From: Planctomycetia bacterium
GTDB lineage: Bacteria > Planctomycetota > Planctomycetia > Pirellulales > UBA7805
Assembly: GCA_021413585.1 (NCBI GenBank)
Contig: JAIOQB010000260.1
Location: forward strand, 1-50,016
Length of the DNA stretch: 50,016 nucleotides
Direction: 5' to 3'
The translations under genes and the position numbers were made by a program. The first letter of the stretch is position 1; each line of letters opens with the position of its first letter. The notes beneath the pieces were generated by a model. It had not been told where the DNA came from. It worked only from the letters and a program-made list of their open reading frames with translations, and made no database searches. Shown here piece by piece: positions 17,425 to 17,497 of this stretch.

Positions 17425-17497
17425 TGGCGCGTAGCTCAGCGGTGAGAGCAGCGTCCTTATAAGACGCAGGTCGAGGGTTCAACTCCCTCCGCGCCGA
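17425..17497 (+). tRNA. tRNA-Ile (TAT) - unusual UAU anticodon (AUA decoder)
   Basis: canonical D-arm TAGCTCAGCGGTGAGAGC, anticodon stem GCGTC/GACGC with loop CTTATAA, perfect T-arm GAGGGTTCAACTCCCTC; U1:G72. Confidence 0.6.

What the first reader, a model, noticed from the sequence alone, without database searches (positions are those of the whole stretch)
17425..17497. tRNA-Ile with UAU anticodon and an array-wide bias toward U34/C34 isoacceptors
A well-formed tRNA has a canonical D-arm and T-arm and an anticodon loop CUUAUAA (anticodon UAU). It would read AUA directly, rather than through the usual lysidine-modified CAU tRNA. Across the array the isoacceptors present are predominantly those reading NNA/NNG codons: Lys UUU/CUU, Gln UUG/CUG, Glu UUC/CUC, Pro UGG/CGG, Ser UGA/CGA, Arg UCG/CCG, Val UAC/CAC, Thr UGU/CGU and Leu UAA/CAA/UAG. 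In a high-GC host where A-ending codons are rare, such a set looks like a codon-usage-compensating tRNA complement, as carried by phages or mobile elements with a different codon bias.
Basis: partly seen in the sequence, partly recalled or inferred. Interest (0 to 1): 0.55.

Follow-up and report, generated by a model that had tools for sequence, protein, structure and literature searches.

The report
Mobile backup tRNA array with Ile-UAU
The unusual isoleucine tRNA is real, but it is one conserved gene of a mobile spare set of 33 tRNA genes found in planctomycete bacteria and their phages, and this set shows no link to codon usage and appears to be held off by a stalled-ribosome sensing switch in front of it.

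Summary
The tRNA-Ile(UAU) at 17425-17497 is real. ARAGORN and Rfam agree (66.5 bits, UAU at positions 34-36). It has 51 orthologues, 41 of 44 distinct sequences keep the CUUAUAA loop, and 8 stem pairs show compensatory changes.

The claimed U34/C34 bias is not real: 23/33 compares with 59 % in related arrays (p=0.14) and 64 % in a canonical bacterial set (p=0.33). Codon compensation is not supported. ATA is 6 % of Ile codons, and the cassette's own genes have the highest GC3 and no ATA.

The gene belongs to a long tRNA array (L-array) cassette: leader, tRNAs, HNH endonuclease, a tRNA-like element and an SPFH gene. The cassette sits in unrelated contexts in Planctomycetota and once inside a phage-like contig. 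It cannot be the sole tRNA set. This family favours Ile(UAU) and Arg(GCG/UCG) over CAU and ACG, so it may not need TilS or TadA.

A conserved leader precedes the arrays. It holds a 31-34-codon ORF rich in rare codons whose stop lies in a putative antiterminator strand, followed by a terminator. A second copy in the window precedes Y-RNA-like genes and a Ro60-like protein.

My best reading, which is inferred, is a stress-inducible backup tRNA supply.

The parts
17425..17497 (+). tRNA-Ile(UAU), the finding itself. Acceptor UGGCGCG/CGCGCCG (U1.G72), canonical D arm, loop CUUAUAA, A73, no encoded CCA.
   Evidence: ARAGORN. Rfam 66.5 bits with UAU at positions 34-36. Ten-sequence alignment: 97.6 % of cells paired, 8 pairs with compensatory changes. 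52 genes, 44 distinct, 41 with CUUAUAA.
16590..23048 (+). Long tRNA array (L-array): 33 co-oriented tRNA genes for 18 amino acids (Trp and Cys missing). Ten are too divergent to reach the Rfam threshold.
   Evidence: The same gene order occurs in related loci.
16361..16465 (+). Leader ORF, 34 codons (MTHLRLSSSIQERTKGTGSFANSANLPPYDPLRW*). It contains rare codons (TTA, AGT, TCA, ATA). Its TGA stop lies inside the U motif. A GAGAG Shine-Dalgarno-like sequence lies upstream.
   Evidence: Coordinates. An equivalent ORF is present in 127 of 133 leaders. This frame is open in 103/104 distinct leaders, against 14 and 61 for the other forward frames. Codon usage.
16462..16468 (+). U motif GTGACAC, the putative 5' strand of an antiterminator. 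It is complementary to GTGTCAC in the 5' arm of the terminator.
   Evidence: 94 % pairable on 12 unbiased sequences. 98.2 % pairable on 88 leaders, with little covariation. An 11-bp helix of -25.4 kcal/mol forms before the 3' arm is made.
16494..16529 (+). Intrinsic terminator (GGCCCGGTGTCAC ... GACATCGGGCC plus a T-run) between the leader ORF and tRNA-Phe.
   Evidence: Terminator scan. 98.5 % paired with 3 compensatory pairs. 99.7 % paired with 23 compensatory cells on 88 leaders. In L042 and L065 the T-run ends 4-6 nt before tRNA-Phe.
16663..22786 (.). Stereotyped inter-tRNA spacers: about 85-95-nt palindromes built of (AGGCTNG)n ... (CNAGCCT)n heptamer units, present in most spacers.
   Evidence: Repeat families of 18-20 copies. 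47 pattern matches, all inside the array, with 0.01 expected by chance. MFE about -36 to -64 kcal/mol for single-unit spacers of 82-96 nt, and -59 and -88 for two longer spacers. Only 1 of 80 related loci has this unit sequence.
21051..21647 (+). HNH endonuclease gene inside the array, between tRNA-His and the Trp relic.
   Evidence: Pfam HNH 1.3e-14. phrog_16726 7e-34. Homologues in 55 fetched loci, 63-79 % identical among the best matches listed, lying between tRNA-His and tRNA-Trp where checked.
21838..21908 (+). tRNA-Trp(CCA) relic. The T stem is broken (CGGGG/CAACG) and ARAGORN does not call it.
   Evidence: Sequence compared with L001 tRNA-Trp.
22243..22644 (+). Small ORF (133 aa) between Arg(CCG) and Arg(UCG). 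No family match.
   Evidence: A homologue with 48 % identity lies inside the L007 cluster.
22975..23048 (+). tRNA-like element 'X' (called Val-CAC). Its body is conserved, its anticodon loop is hypervariable, and the top of its acceptor stem is unpaired.
   Evidence: Rfam tRNA 48.9 bits.
23049..23490 (+). Conserved, structured non-coding stretch between X and the SPFH gene.
   Evidence: Conserved blocks at 23085-23114 and 23225-23254. Fold z = -4.5. No Rfam family.
23491..24597 (+). SPFH/Band_7 protein gene, the right-hand end of the conserved cassette. It is followed by a terminator at 24644-24674.
   Evidence: Pfam Band_7 7e-31. 70-80 % identical in 80 loci. Nothing is conserved downstream of it. 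Terminator.
31859..32028 (+). Second copy of the leader: ORF 31859-31963, U motif 31960-31966, terminator 31992-32018 plus T-run.
   Evidence: Covariance-model hit of 73 bits. 78 % identity over 295 nt to the first copy. Folding.
32633..33375 (+). Four tandem Y-RNA-like (YrlA-type) units downstream of the second leader.
   Evidence: Rfam YrlA hits below the gathering score: 36.4 bits (E 4.8e-6) and 28.4 bits. Four-copy repeat families of the 5' and 3' stem sequences.
33499..35124 (+). vWA protein distantly similar to Ro60 (TROVE-vWA). It is followed by an AAA ATPase (35240-36718), an unknown ORF, Prok-JAB (37818-38261) and ThiF/E1 (38200-38901).
   Evidence: Pfam vWA_Ro60 0.013 and VWA_2 0.009. 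phrog_850 'RNA-binding protein' 4.6e-4. Aligns to the Ro60 of L082 over about 210 aa, E 3e-6. JAB 2e-11 and ThiF 1e-29.

Best explanation
The tRNA-Ile(UAU) gene is a conserved core member of a horizontally mobile, supernumerary long tRNA array (L-array) cassette of Planctomycetota and their phages.

CASSETTE LAYOUT. In order, the cassette has:
- a leader;
- about 30-40 tRNA genes in a fixed order (Phe-Glu-Pro-Ile-Lys-Ile(UAU)-Lys-Thr-...-His);
- an HNH endonuclease gene;
- Trp-Thr-Arg-Arg-Arg-Cys;
- a tRNA-like element;
- an SPFH/Band_7 gene.

ROLE OF THE GENE. Within this set the UAU tRNA is the AUA decoder. A CAU tRNA would need lysidine from the host enzyme TilS. This array family uses UAU instead, just as it uses Arg(GCG)+Arg(UCG) instead of Arg(ACG), which needs TadA. 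The set can therefore work in any host it enters (inferred).

CONTROL. The array is not a codon-usage supplement. It is a second, sequence-divergent tRNA supply that is normally kept off by a leader-peptide transcription attenuator.
- A ribosome that translates the short, rare-codon-rich leader ORF to its stop codon covers the antiterminator strand. The terminator just before tRNA-Phe then forms.
- If ribosomes stall or fail (tRNA depletion or cleavage, antibiotics, phage-host conflict), the antiterminator forms. Transcription then reads through into the array.
- In this genome a second leader copy would do the same for a Y-RNA/Ro60-like RNA quality-control operon.

WHAT IS SHOWN: the gene, its conservation and structure, the cassette and its mobility, its redundancy, the lack of a codon-usage link, and the leader ORF and terminator.
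WHAT IS INFERRED: charging with Ile, independence from modification enzymes, attenuation, and the backup function.
For: GENE
- ARAGORN and Rfam agree on the call.
- 97.6 % of cells are paired, with 8 compensatory pairs, and UAU is invariant in 10 sequences.
- There are 52 genes (44 distinct): CUUAUAA in 41, C4 in 40, U8-A9-G10-C11-U12-C13 in 42.
- Ile(UAU) directly follows Lys(UUU) in 39/46 metagenome arrays.
- In L226 the array's Ile(GAU) scaffold carries UAU.
- The closest E. coli-collection match is a prophage tRNA-Ile2(CAU) with the same D arm. This is weak (E 0.04).

CASSETTE AND MOBILITY
- Arrays are syntenic in many loci.
- Only HNH and Band_7 are shared with the window, none of the flanking genes, and nothing recurs downstream.
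- One contig carries two arrays (L042 and L065).
- L081 carries the whole cassette between phage genes.
- L082 has it next to Ro60, ParB and a serine recombinase.

SUPERNUMERARY STATUS
- No reader exists for 5.8-20.8 % of the window's codons.
- tRNA-Trp is a relic.
- 10 of 33 genes fall below the Rfam threshold.
- In L027 a canonical Arg(CCG) lies beside the array copy.
- tRNA counts of 46-77 occur within two genera (PMC13315336).
- L-arrays are described as HGT-borne, supernumerary and HNH-linked (PMC8421152; PMC5966550).

NO CODON COMPENSATION.

ANTICODON SCHEME
- In this gene-order family (22 arrays): UAU in 13, GCG in 17, UCG in 14, ACG in 3.
- In other HNH-linked arrays (8): UAU in 1, ACG in 7, and 2-3 CAU genes in five of them.

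LEADER
- The covariance model finds it directly upstream of the first tRNA in 25 related loci.
- It is followed by a tRNA within 200 nt in 79 of 102 evaluable metagenome hits.
- The terminator is 99.7 % paired with 23 compensatory cells.
- In L042 and L065 there is no room for a promoter between the terminator and tRNA-Phe.
- The ORF ending in the U motif is open in 103/104 leaders.
- Rare codons are enriched: ATA is 49 % of Ile, AGT is 29 % of Ser, GC3 is 0.57.
- The alternative folds are -25/-28 kcal/mol (antiterminator) and -31/-36 kcal/mol (terminator).
- A second leader precedes the Y-RNA-like and Ro60-like genes.

PRECEDENT. The Anabaena L-array is silent and is induced by translational stress together with rtcB (PMC8421152).
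Against: - There are no expression, charging or modification data of any kind.
- The host genome outside the window is unknown. The presence of tilS, tRNA-Ile2(CAU), tadA and the type of IleRS are all untested.
- E. coli-type IleRS charges a UAU tRNA about 360-fold worse, and an unmodified UAU can misread AUG (PMC3575796).
- Antiterminator covariation is weak: 2 pairs on 12 unbiased sequences, with 19/500 and 28/500 shuffles as good. The larger set was collected with a pattern that fixed those bases.
- The leader ORF shows no third-position excess (0.97/0.84/0.96 bits). Its conservation could be partly at the RNA or DNA level.
- An ATA codon in the leader does not correlate with Ile(UAU) in the array (p=0.47).
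- The window's array is eroded. Nine isoacceptors common in relatives are absent and Trp is a relic, which fits decay as well as function.
- The host's phylum is inferred only from the cassette's relatives and the gene content of the window.
Confidence: 0.55

Rival explanations
1. Phage counter-defence set. The cassette is primarily a phage weapon: a full set of sequence-divergent tRNAs that escape host anticodon nucleases and tRNA-depleting defences during infection. Chromosomal copies such as the window's would be leftovers of integration, or would be kept because they protect against tRNA-targeting toxins.
For: - The complete cassette sits between phage genes in L081.
- HNH-linked arrays occur on many IMG/VR contigs.
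- Array tRNAs differ markedly from canonical copies of the same isoacceptor.
- Eight tRNAs share one anticodon stem.
- The literature shows that phage tRNAs evade tRNases, retrons and PARIS (PMC10264068; PMC11555353 and PMC11464382).
Against: - Most copies lie in chromosomal contexts without phage genes.
- The strict leader pattern was absent from the viral collection.
- No planctomycete tRNase or its cleavage site is known, so resistance could not be tested.
- The one array-versus-canonical anticodon-loop comparison (Arg CCG) showed no consistent difference.
- This reading overlaps with the best explanation rather than excluding it.
Confidence: 0.2
2. Selfish or decaying passenger. The array spreads by HNH-mediated homing or recombination and persists because it is transcriptionally silenced by the terminator. 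It gives the cell no benefit, and Ile(UAU) is simply inherited baggage.
For: - An HNH endonuclease is embedded in the array in the window and has homologues in 55 fetched loci.
- The window's copy is eroded: a Trp relic, nine missing isoacceptors, and hairpin repeats invading the spacers.
- Reduced cassettes with only 2-4 tRNAs exist (L011, L026, L063).
- L-arrays are described as cryptic (PMC8421152).
Against: - The UAU tRNA shows strong purifying selection on its structure and anticodon across 44 distinct sequences.
- Gene order, the leader ORF and the terminator are conserved across more than 100 loci.
- The same leader has been recruited to a second operon in this genome.
Confidence: 0.13
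3. Codon-usage compensation. The array supplies readers of NNA/NNG codons, including AUA, that are rare in the high-GC host but needed by accessory or phage genes with a different codon bias.
For: - The window's array covers 14 of 16 NNA codons but lacks G34 readers for Val, Thr, Ala, Pro and Ser(UCN).
- The classical hypothesis for phage tRNAs is codon compensation (cited in PMC10264068).
Against: - The wobble bias is not significant.
- Relatives carry the G34 genes, so the pattern is a local loss.
- Cassette genes and the phage-like carriers use ATA 0-2 times per gene. In the window and in L081, cassette and phage genes have GC3 of 0.71-0.91, as high as or higher than the window's other genes. 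The L082 genes are lower, at 0.50-0.65.
- C34 tRNAs read the host's abundant NNG codons.
Confidence: 0.07
4. Housekeeping operon. The array is simply the organism's main tRNA gene cluster, and UAU is its normal AUA decoder.
For: The array covers 18 amino acids in one co-oriented cluster.
Against: - It has no Trp, Cys, Gly(UCC) or Arg(UCU/CCU), so 5.8-20.8 % of codons are unreadable.
- Many of its genes are non-canonical.
- Its distribution is patchy and it can be duplicated.
- Canonical duplicates lie nearby in relatives.
Confidence: 0.03

Closest known systems
[quoted passage not shown] PCC 7120 trn operon (PMC8421152), the Acidithiobacillus ICE arrays (PMC4758250) and the Mycobacterium and mycobacteriophage arrays (PMC5966550)
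   Same: - At least 20 co-oriented tRNA genes at more than 2 per kb.
- Supernumerary isodecoders.
- Patchy, HGT-like distribution, including phages.
- An embedded HNH/homing endonuclease.
- The Anabaena array is silent and is induced by translational stress together with an RNA-repair gene.
   Different: - This family has its own fixed gene order.
- A leader ORF plus terminator precedes the first tRNA. The Anabaena array is regulated through direct repeats in its promoter.
- It ends in a tRNA-like element and an SPFH gene.
- It prefers Ile(UAU) and Arg(GCG/UCG).
- Planctomycetes are only listed as a phylum with L-arrays in PMC8421152. I found no description of this cassette.
Bacterial tRNA-Ile2(UAU) AUA decoders (Mycoplasma mobile; also Bifidobacterium, Neorickettsia and some Lactobacillus; PMC3575796)
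   Same: A bacterial tRNA with a UAU anticodon in a CUUAUAA-type loop, A37/A38 and A73, which can pair with AUA without lysidine.
   Different: - Those are single housekeeping genes in genomes that usually lack tilS and have an adapted IleRS and ribosome.
- This one is a member of a mobile, redundant array.
- TilS is present in about 98 % of bacteria (PMC6063277), so the host most likely has it.
- Charging and AUG discrimination are untested here.
Phage tRNA sets acting against tRNA-targeting defences (PMC10264068, PMC11555353, PMC11464382)
   Same: Large, near-complete, sequence-divergent tRNA sets carried by phages that are not explained by codon usage.
   Different: - No cognate nuclease or resistance mutation could be identified here.
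- Most copies are chromosomal and lie behind a terminator.
Ribosome-mediated (leader-peptide) transcription attenuators such as trpL, hisL and pheL (pheL: PMC3082878)
   Same: A short upstream ORF, a stop codon at the antiterminator strand, mutually exclusive antiterminator and terminator helices, a U-run, and regulatory rare codons in the leader.
   Different: - The regulated genes are tRNAs (and Y-RNA-like RNAs), not amino-acid biosynthesis enzymes.
- The leader has a mixture of rare codons rather than a run for one amino acid.
- No 'region 1' pairing partner for the U motif was identified.
- The function is untested.
Ro60/Rsr-Y RNA (YrlA) modules and the Salmonella rsr-yrlBA-rtcBA RNA-repair operon (PMC4201824, PMC7790460)
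   Same: Tandem Y-RNA-like genes with a permuted tRNA-like module lie next to a TROVE/vWA-like protein. The Salmonella operon responds to tRNA damage.
   Different: - The Rfam YrlA scores are below the gathering threshold (36 and 28 bits against 69).
- The protein is only distantly Ro60-like.
- The partners here are an AAA ATPase, a JAB and an E1-like protein rather than RtcB/RtcA.
- Control is by the array's leader rather than by RtcR/sigma-54.

Membership tests
tRNA (Rfam RF00005) | A cloverleaf that scores above the family gathering threshold (29 bits) | tested here: met
   66.5 bits over model positions 1-71/71, with no non-canonical pairs. ARAGORN gives the same coordinates.
Bacterial tRNA-Ile(UAU) AUA decoder | Anticodon UAU at positions 34-36 in a 7-nt loop with U33 and A37 | tested here: met
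   The loop is CUUAUAA. It is kept in 41 of 44 distinct orthologues.
Bacterial tRNA-Ile(UAU) AUA decoder | Ile identity elements known from E. coli tRNA-Ile (A73, C4-G69, U12-A23, A37, A38, C29-G41; recalled from Nureki et al. 1994, not re-read here) | tested here: inconclusive
   A73, C4-G69, U12-A23, A37 and A38 are present. Position 29-41 is G-C in the window and variable elsewhere. The determinants of a planctomycete IleRS are unknown.
Bacterial tRNA-Ile(UAU) AUA decoder | Aminoacylation with isoleucine, and reading of AUA but not AUG | not testable with these tools
   This needs charging assays, tRNA-seq and ribosome binding. E. coli IleRS discriminates against UAU about 360-fold (PMC3575796).
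Bacterial tRNA-Ile(UAU) AUA decoder | A host that lacks tilS / tRNA-Ile2(CAU), as in M. mobile | not testable with these tools
   Only 50 kb of the host is available. TilS occurs in 98 % of bacteria (PMC6063277). The array itself also holds two atypical CAU genes.
tRNA array unit / L-array | At least 20 tRNA genes at 2 or more per kb (Tran et al., PMC4758250) | tested here: met
   33 genes in 6.46 kb, or 5.1 per kb.
tRNA array unit / L-array | Genes in the same orientation and close enough to be co-transcribed (PMC8421152) | tested here: met
   All genes are on the + strand. No terminator-like hairpin with a T-run lies between genes, apart from weak matches inside tRNAs. Co-transcription itself was not measured.
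tRNA array unit / L-array | Supernumerary: redundant to a housekeeping tRNA set | tested here: met
   The array cannot decode 5.8-20.8 % of the window's codons. In L027 a canonical Arg(CCG) lies beside the array copy. The host's full tRNA set was not seen.
tRNA array unit / L-array | Patchy distribution and horizontal transfer, with links to mobile elements or phages | tested here: met
   The flanks are unrelated in all loci. One contig has two copies. L081 is a phage-like context. L082 has a recombinase and ParB.
tRNA array unit / L-array | An associated homing (HNH) endonuclease. This is frequent in the family but not obligatory. | tested here: met
   The HNH gene at 21051-21647. Homologues occur in 55 loci.
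Codon-compensating phage tRNA set | The tRNAs match codons that the carrying element uses more than the host does | tested here: not met
   Cassette genes have GC3 of 0.84-0.86 and no ATA. Genes of L081 and L082 have 0-2 ATA each. There is no significant wobble bias.
Codon-compensating phage tRNA set | Located in a phage or prophage | tested here: not met
   No phage hallmark gene was found in the window. The feature is met only in relative L081.
Leader-peptide transcription attenuator | A short translated ORF upstream of the regulated genes, conserved as an open frame | tested here: met
   127 of 133 leaders have an ATG ORF, and 81 of 106 are 31-34 codons long. The frame is open in 103/104, against 14 and 61 for the other frames. 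Translation itself is untested.
Leader-peptide transcription attenuator | An intrinsic terminator between the leader ORF and the first regulated gene | tested here: met
   An 11-bp GC-rich stem plus a T-run. It lies 4-6 nt before tRNA-Phe in L042 and L065.
Leader-peptide transcription attenuator | An antiterminator helix that excludes the terminator and is masked by a ribosome at the leader's stop codon | tested here: inconclusive
   The stop TGA lies inside the U motif. The pairing is 94-98 % possible, with a fold of -25 to -28 kcal/mol. Covariation is weak, and the large alignment is biased by the search pattern.
Leader-peptide transcription attenuator | Regulatory codons in the leader that sense tRNA supply | tested here: inconclusive
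   Rare codons are enriched: ATA is 49 % of Ile codons against 6 %, AGT occupies codon 7 in 40/44, and GC3 is 0.57 against 0.78. The host genomes differ, and there is no link between leader ATA and array Ile(UAU).
YrlA / Ro60 module (for the second leader's operon) | A match to the Rfam YrlA model at the gathering score, next to a TROVE-domain Ro60 | tested here: not met
   The scores are 36.4 and 28.4 bits against a gathering score of 69. No TROVE hit was found. There is only weak vWA_Ro60 similarity (0.013) and a 22 %-identity alignment to the Ro60 of L082. It resembles the family, but membership is not shown.

The most novel reading that the evidence does not exclude
The cassette is a self-contained emergency translation module. 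A leader-peptide attenuator senses ribosome stalling through a short ORF rich in rare codons. It then switches on a near-complete tRNA set that does not depend on wobble-editing enzymes (Ile-UAU in place of k2C-AU, Arg-GCG/UCG in place of ICG). In this genome a duplicated leader also switches on a Y-RNA/Ro60-like RNA quality-control operon. The module would move between planctomycete chromosomes and phages, and would serve whichever side carries it when tRNAs are depleted or cleaved. This would be the first ribosome-mediated attenuator known to control tRNA genes, and it would give L-arrays a mechanistic reason to exist.
Probability: 0.35. Interest if true: 0.8.

Novelty: new variant of a known kind. 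Interest (0 to 1): 0.6.

Why it matters
Long tRNA arrays are widespread, but their purpose is still debated. The candidates are codon compensation, counter-defence, a stress backup, or selfish DNA.

This family offers three handles that can be tested directly:
- A conserved leader ORF and terminator sit in front of the first tRNA. This predicts exactly when the array is expressed and can be checked with simple reporter mutants.
- The anticodon scheme (Ile-UAU, Arg-GCG/UCG) avoids the two essential wobble-editing enzymes TilS and TadA. This suggests how a tRNA set can be made portable between hosts.
- The same leader occurs on a Y-RNA/Ro60-like operon, which ties the array to RNA damage control.

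It also shows that tRNA-Ile(UAU), regarded as a rarity of reduced genomes, is a stable, selected gene in a large environmental gene pool. That raises the question of how AUG misreading is avoided there.

At least one carrier, Adhaeretor mobilis HG15A2, has been cultured and has a complete genome, so the experiments are feasible.

Tried and rejected
SEARCHES THAT FOUND NOTHING USEFUL
- Near-identity searches of the array region against deposited phages and plasmids gave only a 93-nt tRNA-Ser match, or nothing.
- An exact look-up of the source contig through the aminotransferase protein found no record.
- A strict tRNA-Ile(UAU) pattern in viral contigs gave 1 hit. The pattern was too strict to be informative.
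- A strict leader pattern in viral contigs gave 0 hits, although the covariance model does find the leader in viral loci L081 and L082.
- PADLOC found no defence family for Band_7. HNH matched only generic HNH domains (PtuB, Cas9). NCBIfam found only distant HflK and IscB-HNH similarity.
- Rfam at a permissive threshold found no family for the leader or for the stretch between X and Band_7.
- No att-like or target-site direct repeats of 9 nt or more flank the cassette.
- A PDB sequence search with the vWA protein found nothing.
- The supplementary data of PMC8421152 (the list of species with L-arrays) are not held.
- The tRNA count of A. mobilis is not given in the main text of its description.

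TESTS THAT CAME OUT NEGATIVE OR WEAK
- The hairpin spacers show no strand asymmetry in fold energy. This gives no evidence that they act as RNA rather than DNA.
- The leader ORF has no third-position excess, so the peptide itself is probably not selected.
- An ATA codon in the leader does not associate with Ile(UAU) in the array (p=0.47).
- The isotype check against E. coli found no hit for the L130-type sequence. The window sequence gave only a weak hit, to a prophage tRNA-Ile2.

READINGS CONSIDERED AND REJECTED
- 'GGCGAATACGCT is the promoter -10 box'. It lies inside the conserved leader ORF (codons Ala-Asn-Thr), so it is more likely coding.
- 'X is an ordinary tRNA-Val'. Its anticodon loop is hypervariable and U33 is not conserved.
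Full report
1. THE OBSERVATION

ARAGORN calls a tRNA-Ile with anticodon UAU at exactly 17425-17497 (+). It lies inside a run of 33 co-oriented tRNA genes, 16590-23048. Rfam's tRNA model scores it 66.5 bits, the joint best in the window. The model's alignment places UAU at positions 34-36 of the loop CUUAUAA, with no non-canonical pair.

The sequence has these features:
- acceptor UGGCGCG/CGCGCCG, with U1.G72;
- a canonical D arm, UAGCUCAGCGGUGAGAGC;
- A37, A38 and A73;
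- no encoded CCA.

2. IS IT MORE THAN CHANCE OR A ONE-OFF?

No, it is a conserved gene. Loci fetched through the neighbouring Band_7 gene contain arrays with the same gene order. Ten of them carry the same Lys(UUU)-Ile(UAU)-Lys(CUU) trio.

On ten orthologues, 97.6 % of stem cells pair and 8 pairs have changes on both sides. No shuffle out of 500 reaches the observed covariation, and UAU is invariant.

After adding viral and metagenome loci there are 52 genes, 44 of them distinct:
- 41 keep the loop CUUAUAA;
- 40 keep C4;
- 42 keep U8-A9-G10-C11-U12-C13.

In 39 of 46 metagenome arrays that reach this position, Ile(UAU) directly follows Lys(UUU).

Isoleucine identity rests on three weaker points:
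- A73, C4-G69, U12-A23, A37 and A38 are present. These are E. coli tRNA-Ile determinants, recalled from Nureki et al. 1994.
- In L226 the array's own Ile(GAU) scaffold carries UAU.
- The closest match in the E. coli collection is a prophage tRNA-Ile2(CAU) with an identical D arm, but only at E 0.04.
Charging with isoleucine remains inferred.

3. THE CLAIMED U34/C34 BIAS

The array has 10 G34, 12 U34 and 11 C34 genes, or 70 % U+C.
- Nineteen related arrays pool to 59 % (p=0.14).
- A canonical bacterial anticodon set gives 64 % (p=0.33).

The layout of the genetic code alone produces roughly two-thirds U34/C34.

Relative to its family, the window's array lacks 4 G34, 2 U34 and 3 C34 genes. One of them, tRNA-Trp, survives as a relic with a broken T stem at 21838-21908. 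So there is erosion, and it is not directed at one wobble base.

4. CODON COMPENSATION

In 12 confident genes of the window, GC3 is 0.78, A-ending codons are 9 %, and ATA is 18 of 294 Ile codons. The two protein genes tied to the array, HNH and Band_7, have GC3 of 0.84-0.86 and no ATA. Genes of two phage-like carriers have 0-2 ATA each. Nothing that travels with the array needs AUA or NNA readers more than the host does.

5. WHAT THE ARRAY IS

By published criteria it is a tRNA array unit, or L-array. It has at least 20 genes at 2 or more per kb, it is co-oriented, and it is supernumerary, patchy and often linked to an HNH homing endonuclease (PMC4758250, PMC8421152, PMC5966550).

An HNH gene sits inside the array here (21051-21647). 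It has homologues in 55 loci, and where checked they lie between tRNA-His and tRNA-Trp.

The conserved unit is [leader - tRNAs - HNH - tRNAs - tRNA-like X - Band_7]:
- Only HNH and Band_7 among the window's proteins recur next to arrays. The sulfatase, YaiI, GH2 and GH127 neighbours never do.
- No gene recurs downstream of Band_7.
- One contig holds two arrays 50 kb apart (L042 and L065).
- On IMG/VR contig L081 the whole cassette lies between phage genes (phrog_6247 at 1e-99, large terminase at 4e-89).
- On L082 it lies next to a Ro60 (TROVE+vWA) protein, ParB proteins and a large serine recombinase.

The window's copy has no phage genes around it and no flanking direct repeats. The host is probably a planctomycete. 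This is inferred from the relatives and from the gene content.

6. THE ARRAY IS A SPARE SET, NOT THE MAIN ONE

- It has no reader for 5.8 % of the window's codons (Trp, Cys, GGR, AGR) even with superwobble, and for 20.8 % under strict wobble.
- Ten of its 33 genes are too divergent to reach the Rfam threshold.
- In L027 a canonical tRNA-Arg(CCG) lies 5 kb from the array's divergent copy. Canonical Thr(CGU) and Pro(CGG) genes in other loci differ similarly from the array versions.
- Within two Lacipirellulaceae genera, tRNA gene counts range from 46 to 77 (PMC13315336).

7. WHY UAU?

In this gene-order family (22 arrays), Ile(UAU) occurs in 13, Arg(GCG) in 17 and Arg(UCG) in 14, but Arg(ACG) in only 3. 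Eight other HNH-linked arrays on viral contigs show the reverse: ACG in 7, UAU in 1, and 2-3 CAU genes in five of them.

UAU replaces the CAU tRNA that needs lysidine from TilS. GCG+UCG replace the ACG tRNA that needs deamination by TadA. I infer that this family encodes a decoding scheme that does not depend on the host's two wobble-editing enzymes, which suits a tRNA set that changes hosts.

Two caveats apply:
- TilS is present in about 98 % of bacteria (PMC6063277), so the host probably decodes AUA anyway.
- E. coli-type IleRS charges UAU poorly, and unmodified UAU can misread AUG (PMC3575796).

8. A CONSERVED LEADER

All 13 arrays whose start was available share an upstream element. It consists of the motif TGCGCTTGTGACAC, then 30-45 nt, then the hairpin GGCCCGGTGTCAC...GACATCGGGCC followed by a T-run. 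In the window the terminator is at 16494-16529, and the generic terminator scan also found it.

A covariance model built from 12 sequences finds the element in these places:
- directly upstream of the first tRNA in 25 related loci, many of them outside the training set, including reduced clusters of 2-4 tRNAs;
- in 114 metagenome stretches fetched with a leader pattern. Of these, 79 of 102 evaluable have a tRNA within 200 nt, and 64 start with tRNA-Phe 11-45 nt downstream.

The terminator helix is 99.7 % paired, with 23 compensatory cells on 88 distinct leaders. In L042 and L065 the T-run ends 4-6 nt before tRNA-Phe. Transcription of the array must therefore pass through the terminator. No Rfam family matches the leader.

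9. A LEADER ORF

In 127 of 133 leader instances an ATG-initiated ORF ends at a TGA that lies inside the motif G-TGA-CAC. In 81 of 106 distinct cases the ATG lies 31-34 codons upstream. The consensus peptide is MTS[ILF][RW][LSP]S...[FY]A.Q[SP]ANTLP.[YH]PLRL.

That frame is open over 32 codons in 103 of 104 distinct leaders. The other forward frames are open in 14 and 61.

There is no third-position excess. What is conserved is the ORF, its length and its stop, not the peptide.

The codons are unusual. ATA is 49 % of Ile codons, AGT is 29 % of Ser and occupies codon 7 in 40 of 44, and GC3 is 0.57.

GTGACAC is complementary to GTGTCAC in the 5' arm of the terminator. Before the 3' arm is made, the RNA folds into an 11-bp U:T5 helix (-25.4 and -27.6 kcal/mol in the two window copies). 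The complete leader folds into the terminator (-31.1 and -35.7 kcal/mol).

This is the architecture of a ribosome-mediated attenuator:
- a ribosome that reaches the stop codon masks U, and the terminator forms;
- a ribosome that stalls or is absent leaves U free, and transcription reads through.

Support for the antiterminator pairing is only moderate. It is 94 % pairable with two compensatory pairs on the unbiased set. The larger set was collected with those bases fixed. An ATA codon in the leader does not correlate with Ile(UAU) in the array. I found no description of such an attenuator in front of tRNA arrays.

10. A SECOND LEADER IN THE WINDOW

A second leader copy lies at 31859-32028. It scores 73 bits and is 78 % identical to the first over 295 nt. 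In order, it precedes:
- a 74-codon ORF ending in Gly;
- four tandem Y-RNA-like units at 32633-33375 (sub-threshold hits to the tRNA-like module of Rfam YrlA, E 4.8e-6 and 1e-3, and four-copy repeats of the stem sequences);
- a vWA protein distantly like Ro60;
- an AAA ATPase;
- an unknown ORF;
- a Prok-JAB protein and a ThiF/E1-like protein.

Ro60/Y-RNA modules belong to RNA quality control, and in Salmonella they belong to a tRNA-damage-responsive operon (PMC4201824, PMC7790460). The Anabaena L-array is silent, is induced by ribosome-targeting antibiotics and is co-regulated with rtcB (PMC8421152). The shared leader therefore points to a translational or RNA-damage stress regulon rather than to codon supplementation.

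11. VERDICT

The tRNA-Ile(UAU) is real, conserved and probably functional. The wobble bias and the codon-compensation reading are not supported.

The best explanation is a mobile, normally silent backup tRNA supply with an anticodon set that is independent of wobble-editing enzymes. It would be switched on by a stalled-ribosome sensor. The gene, the cassette, the redundancy and the leader anatomy are shown. Attenuation, charging and the physiological role are inferred.

The main rivals are a phage counter-defence set, which overlaps with this reading, and a silenced selfish passenger.

Noticed in passing
window 16663-22786 (e.g. 16663-16748, 18299-18387, 22701-22786); also L014 5875-5968, 8951-9055, 9130-9231; L071 5401-5500, 6308-6412; L067 4022-4139; L080 4250-4325, 5358-5461, 9223-9297: Most inter-tRNA spacers in the window are 85-95-nt palindromes made of about 7-nt units, (AGGCTNG)n...(CNAGCCT)n. 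All 47 pattern hits lie inside the array, with 0.01 expected by chance. Other arrays have the same kind of heptamer-periodic hairpins but with unrelated unit sequences. They might be RNase III processing stems, palindromic mini-elements or slippage products. This is unexplained.
   Followed up: partly
window 22975-23048 and 23049-23490: The last 'tRNA' before the SPFH gene (called Val-CAC) has a near-identical body in 16 loci. Its anticodon loop is hypervariable, U33 is not conserved, and the top of its acceptor stem is mostly unpaired. Different loci read as His-AUG, Met, Leu, Phe, Asn, 'stop' and so on. It is followed by a conserved, structured 440-nt stretch (z = -4.5) that matches no Rfam family. 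Even loci without a big array keep tRNA-Cys, X and Band_7.
   Followed up: partly
window 31859-38901: A second copy of the array's leader precedes, in order: a 74-aa ORF ending in Gly, four tandem Y-RNA-like units, a Ro60-like vWA protein, an AAA ATPase, an unknown 351-aa ORF, a Prok-JAB protein and a ThiF/E1-like protein. This may be an RNA quality-control or ubiquitin-like conjugation operon under the same control as the tRNA array.
   Followed up: partly
window 21838-21908: This is a tRNA-Trp(CCA) relic. It is about 90 % identical to the tRNA-Trp of L001 but has two mismatches in the T stem, and ARAGORN does not call it.
   Followed up: yes
window 22631-22859; arrays in L001-L082: This array family carries Arg(GCG) and Arg(UCG) (17 and 14 of 22 arrays). 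The usual bacterial Arg(ACG) occurs in only 3 of 22. Arg(GCG) is an unusual bacterial anticodon and would make CGU/CGC decoding independent of TadA.
   Followed up: partly
window 16590-20910 (Phe, Lys-CUU, Gln x2, Ala, Leu-UAG, Asp, His): Eight array tRNAs of different specificity share essentially one anticodon stem (CCUGG/CCAGG or UCUGG/CCAGA). This is unusual for a tRNA set. It suggests anticodon switching among paralogues, or a common constraint on the anticodon arm.
   Followed up: no
window 20033-20102 and 20166-20235: Two 70-nt tRNA(CAU) genes have a truncated D arm (anticodon at position 30) and fall below the Rfam threshold. Similar genes recur in related arrays (L035, L067, L071, L079, L080). 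Whether they are Met, initiator or Ile2 type is unknown.
   Followed up: no
window 22243-22644: A 133-aa ORF with no family match sits between Arg(CCG) and Arg(UCG). A 48 %-identical homologue lies inside the tRNA cluster of L007.
   Followed up: partly
window 16530-16575 and 17161-17216: Four direct repeats of TGCGCT(C/G)NTT lie between the leader terminator and tRNA-Phe. They resemble the start of the U motif. Separately, an 8-nt tandem (GCAGGWGA x7) sits in the long spacer after Ile(GAU).
   Followed up: no
window 1794-3611 and 4693-5607: There is a fusion protein of a CAP12/Pycsar-type TIR effector domain (PADLOC TIR effector, 6e-45) with a class-I methyltransferase. Nearby is a truncated IS66 transposase. 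Together these hint at a defence or mobile-DNA neighbourhood about 13 kb upstream of the array.
   Followed up: no
window 27496-27542 (-): An Rfam Acido-Lenti-1 sRNA match lies just above the gathering score (40.7 against 37 bits), between the GH2 and GH127 genes.
   Followed up: no
window 41161-46524: A 1787-aa ORF (GC3 0.85) has no Pfam or PHROG match at all. The neighbouring 866-aa ORF at 47058-49658 (-) is equally unannotated.
   Followed up: no
L128 and L140 (metagenome): In these loci the leader is followed directly by the 3' part of the Band_7 gene, with no tRNAs. These are apparent deletions of the whole array within the cassette.
   Followed up: no
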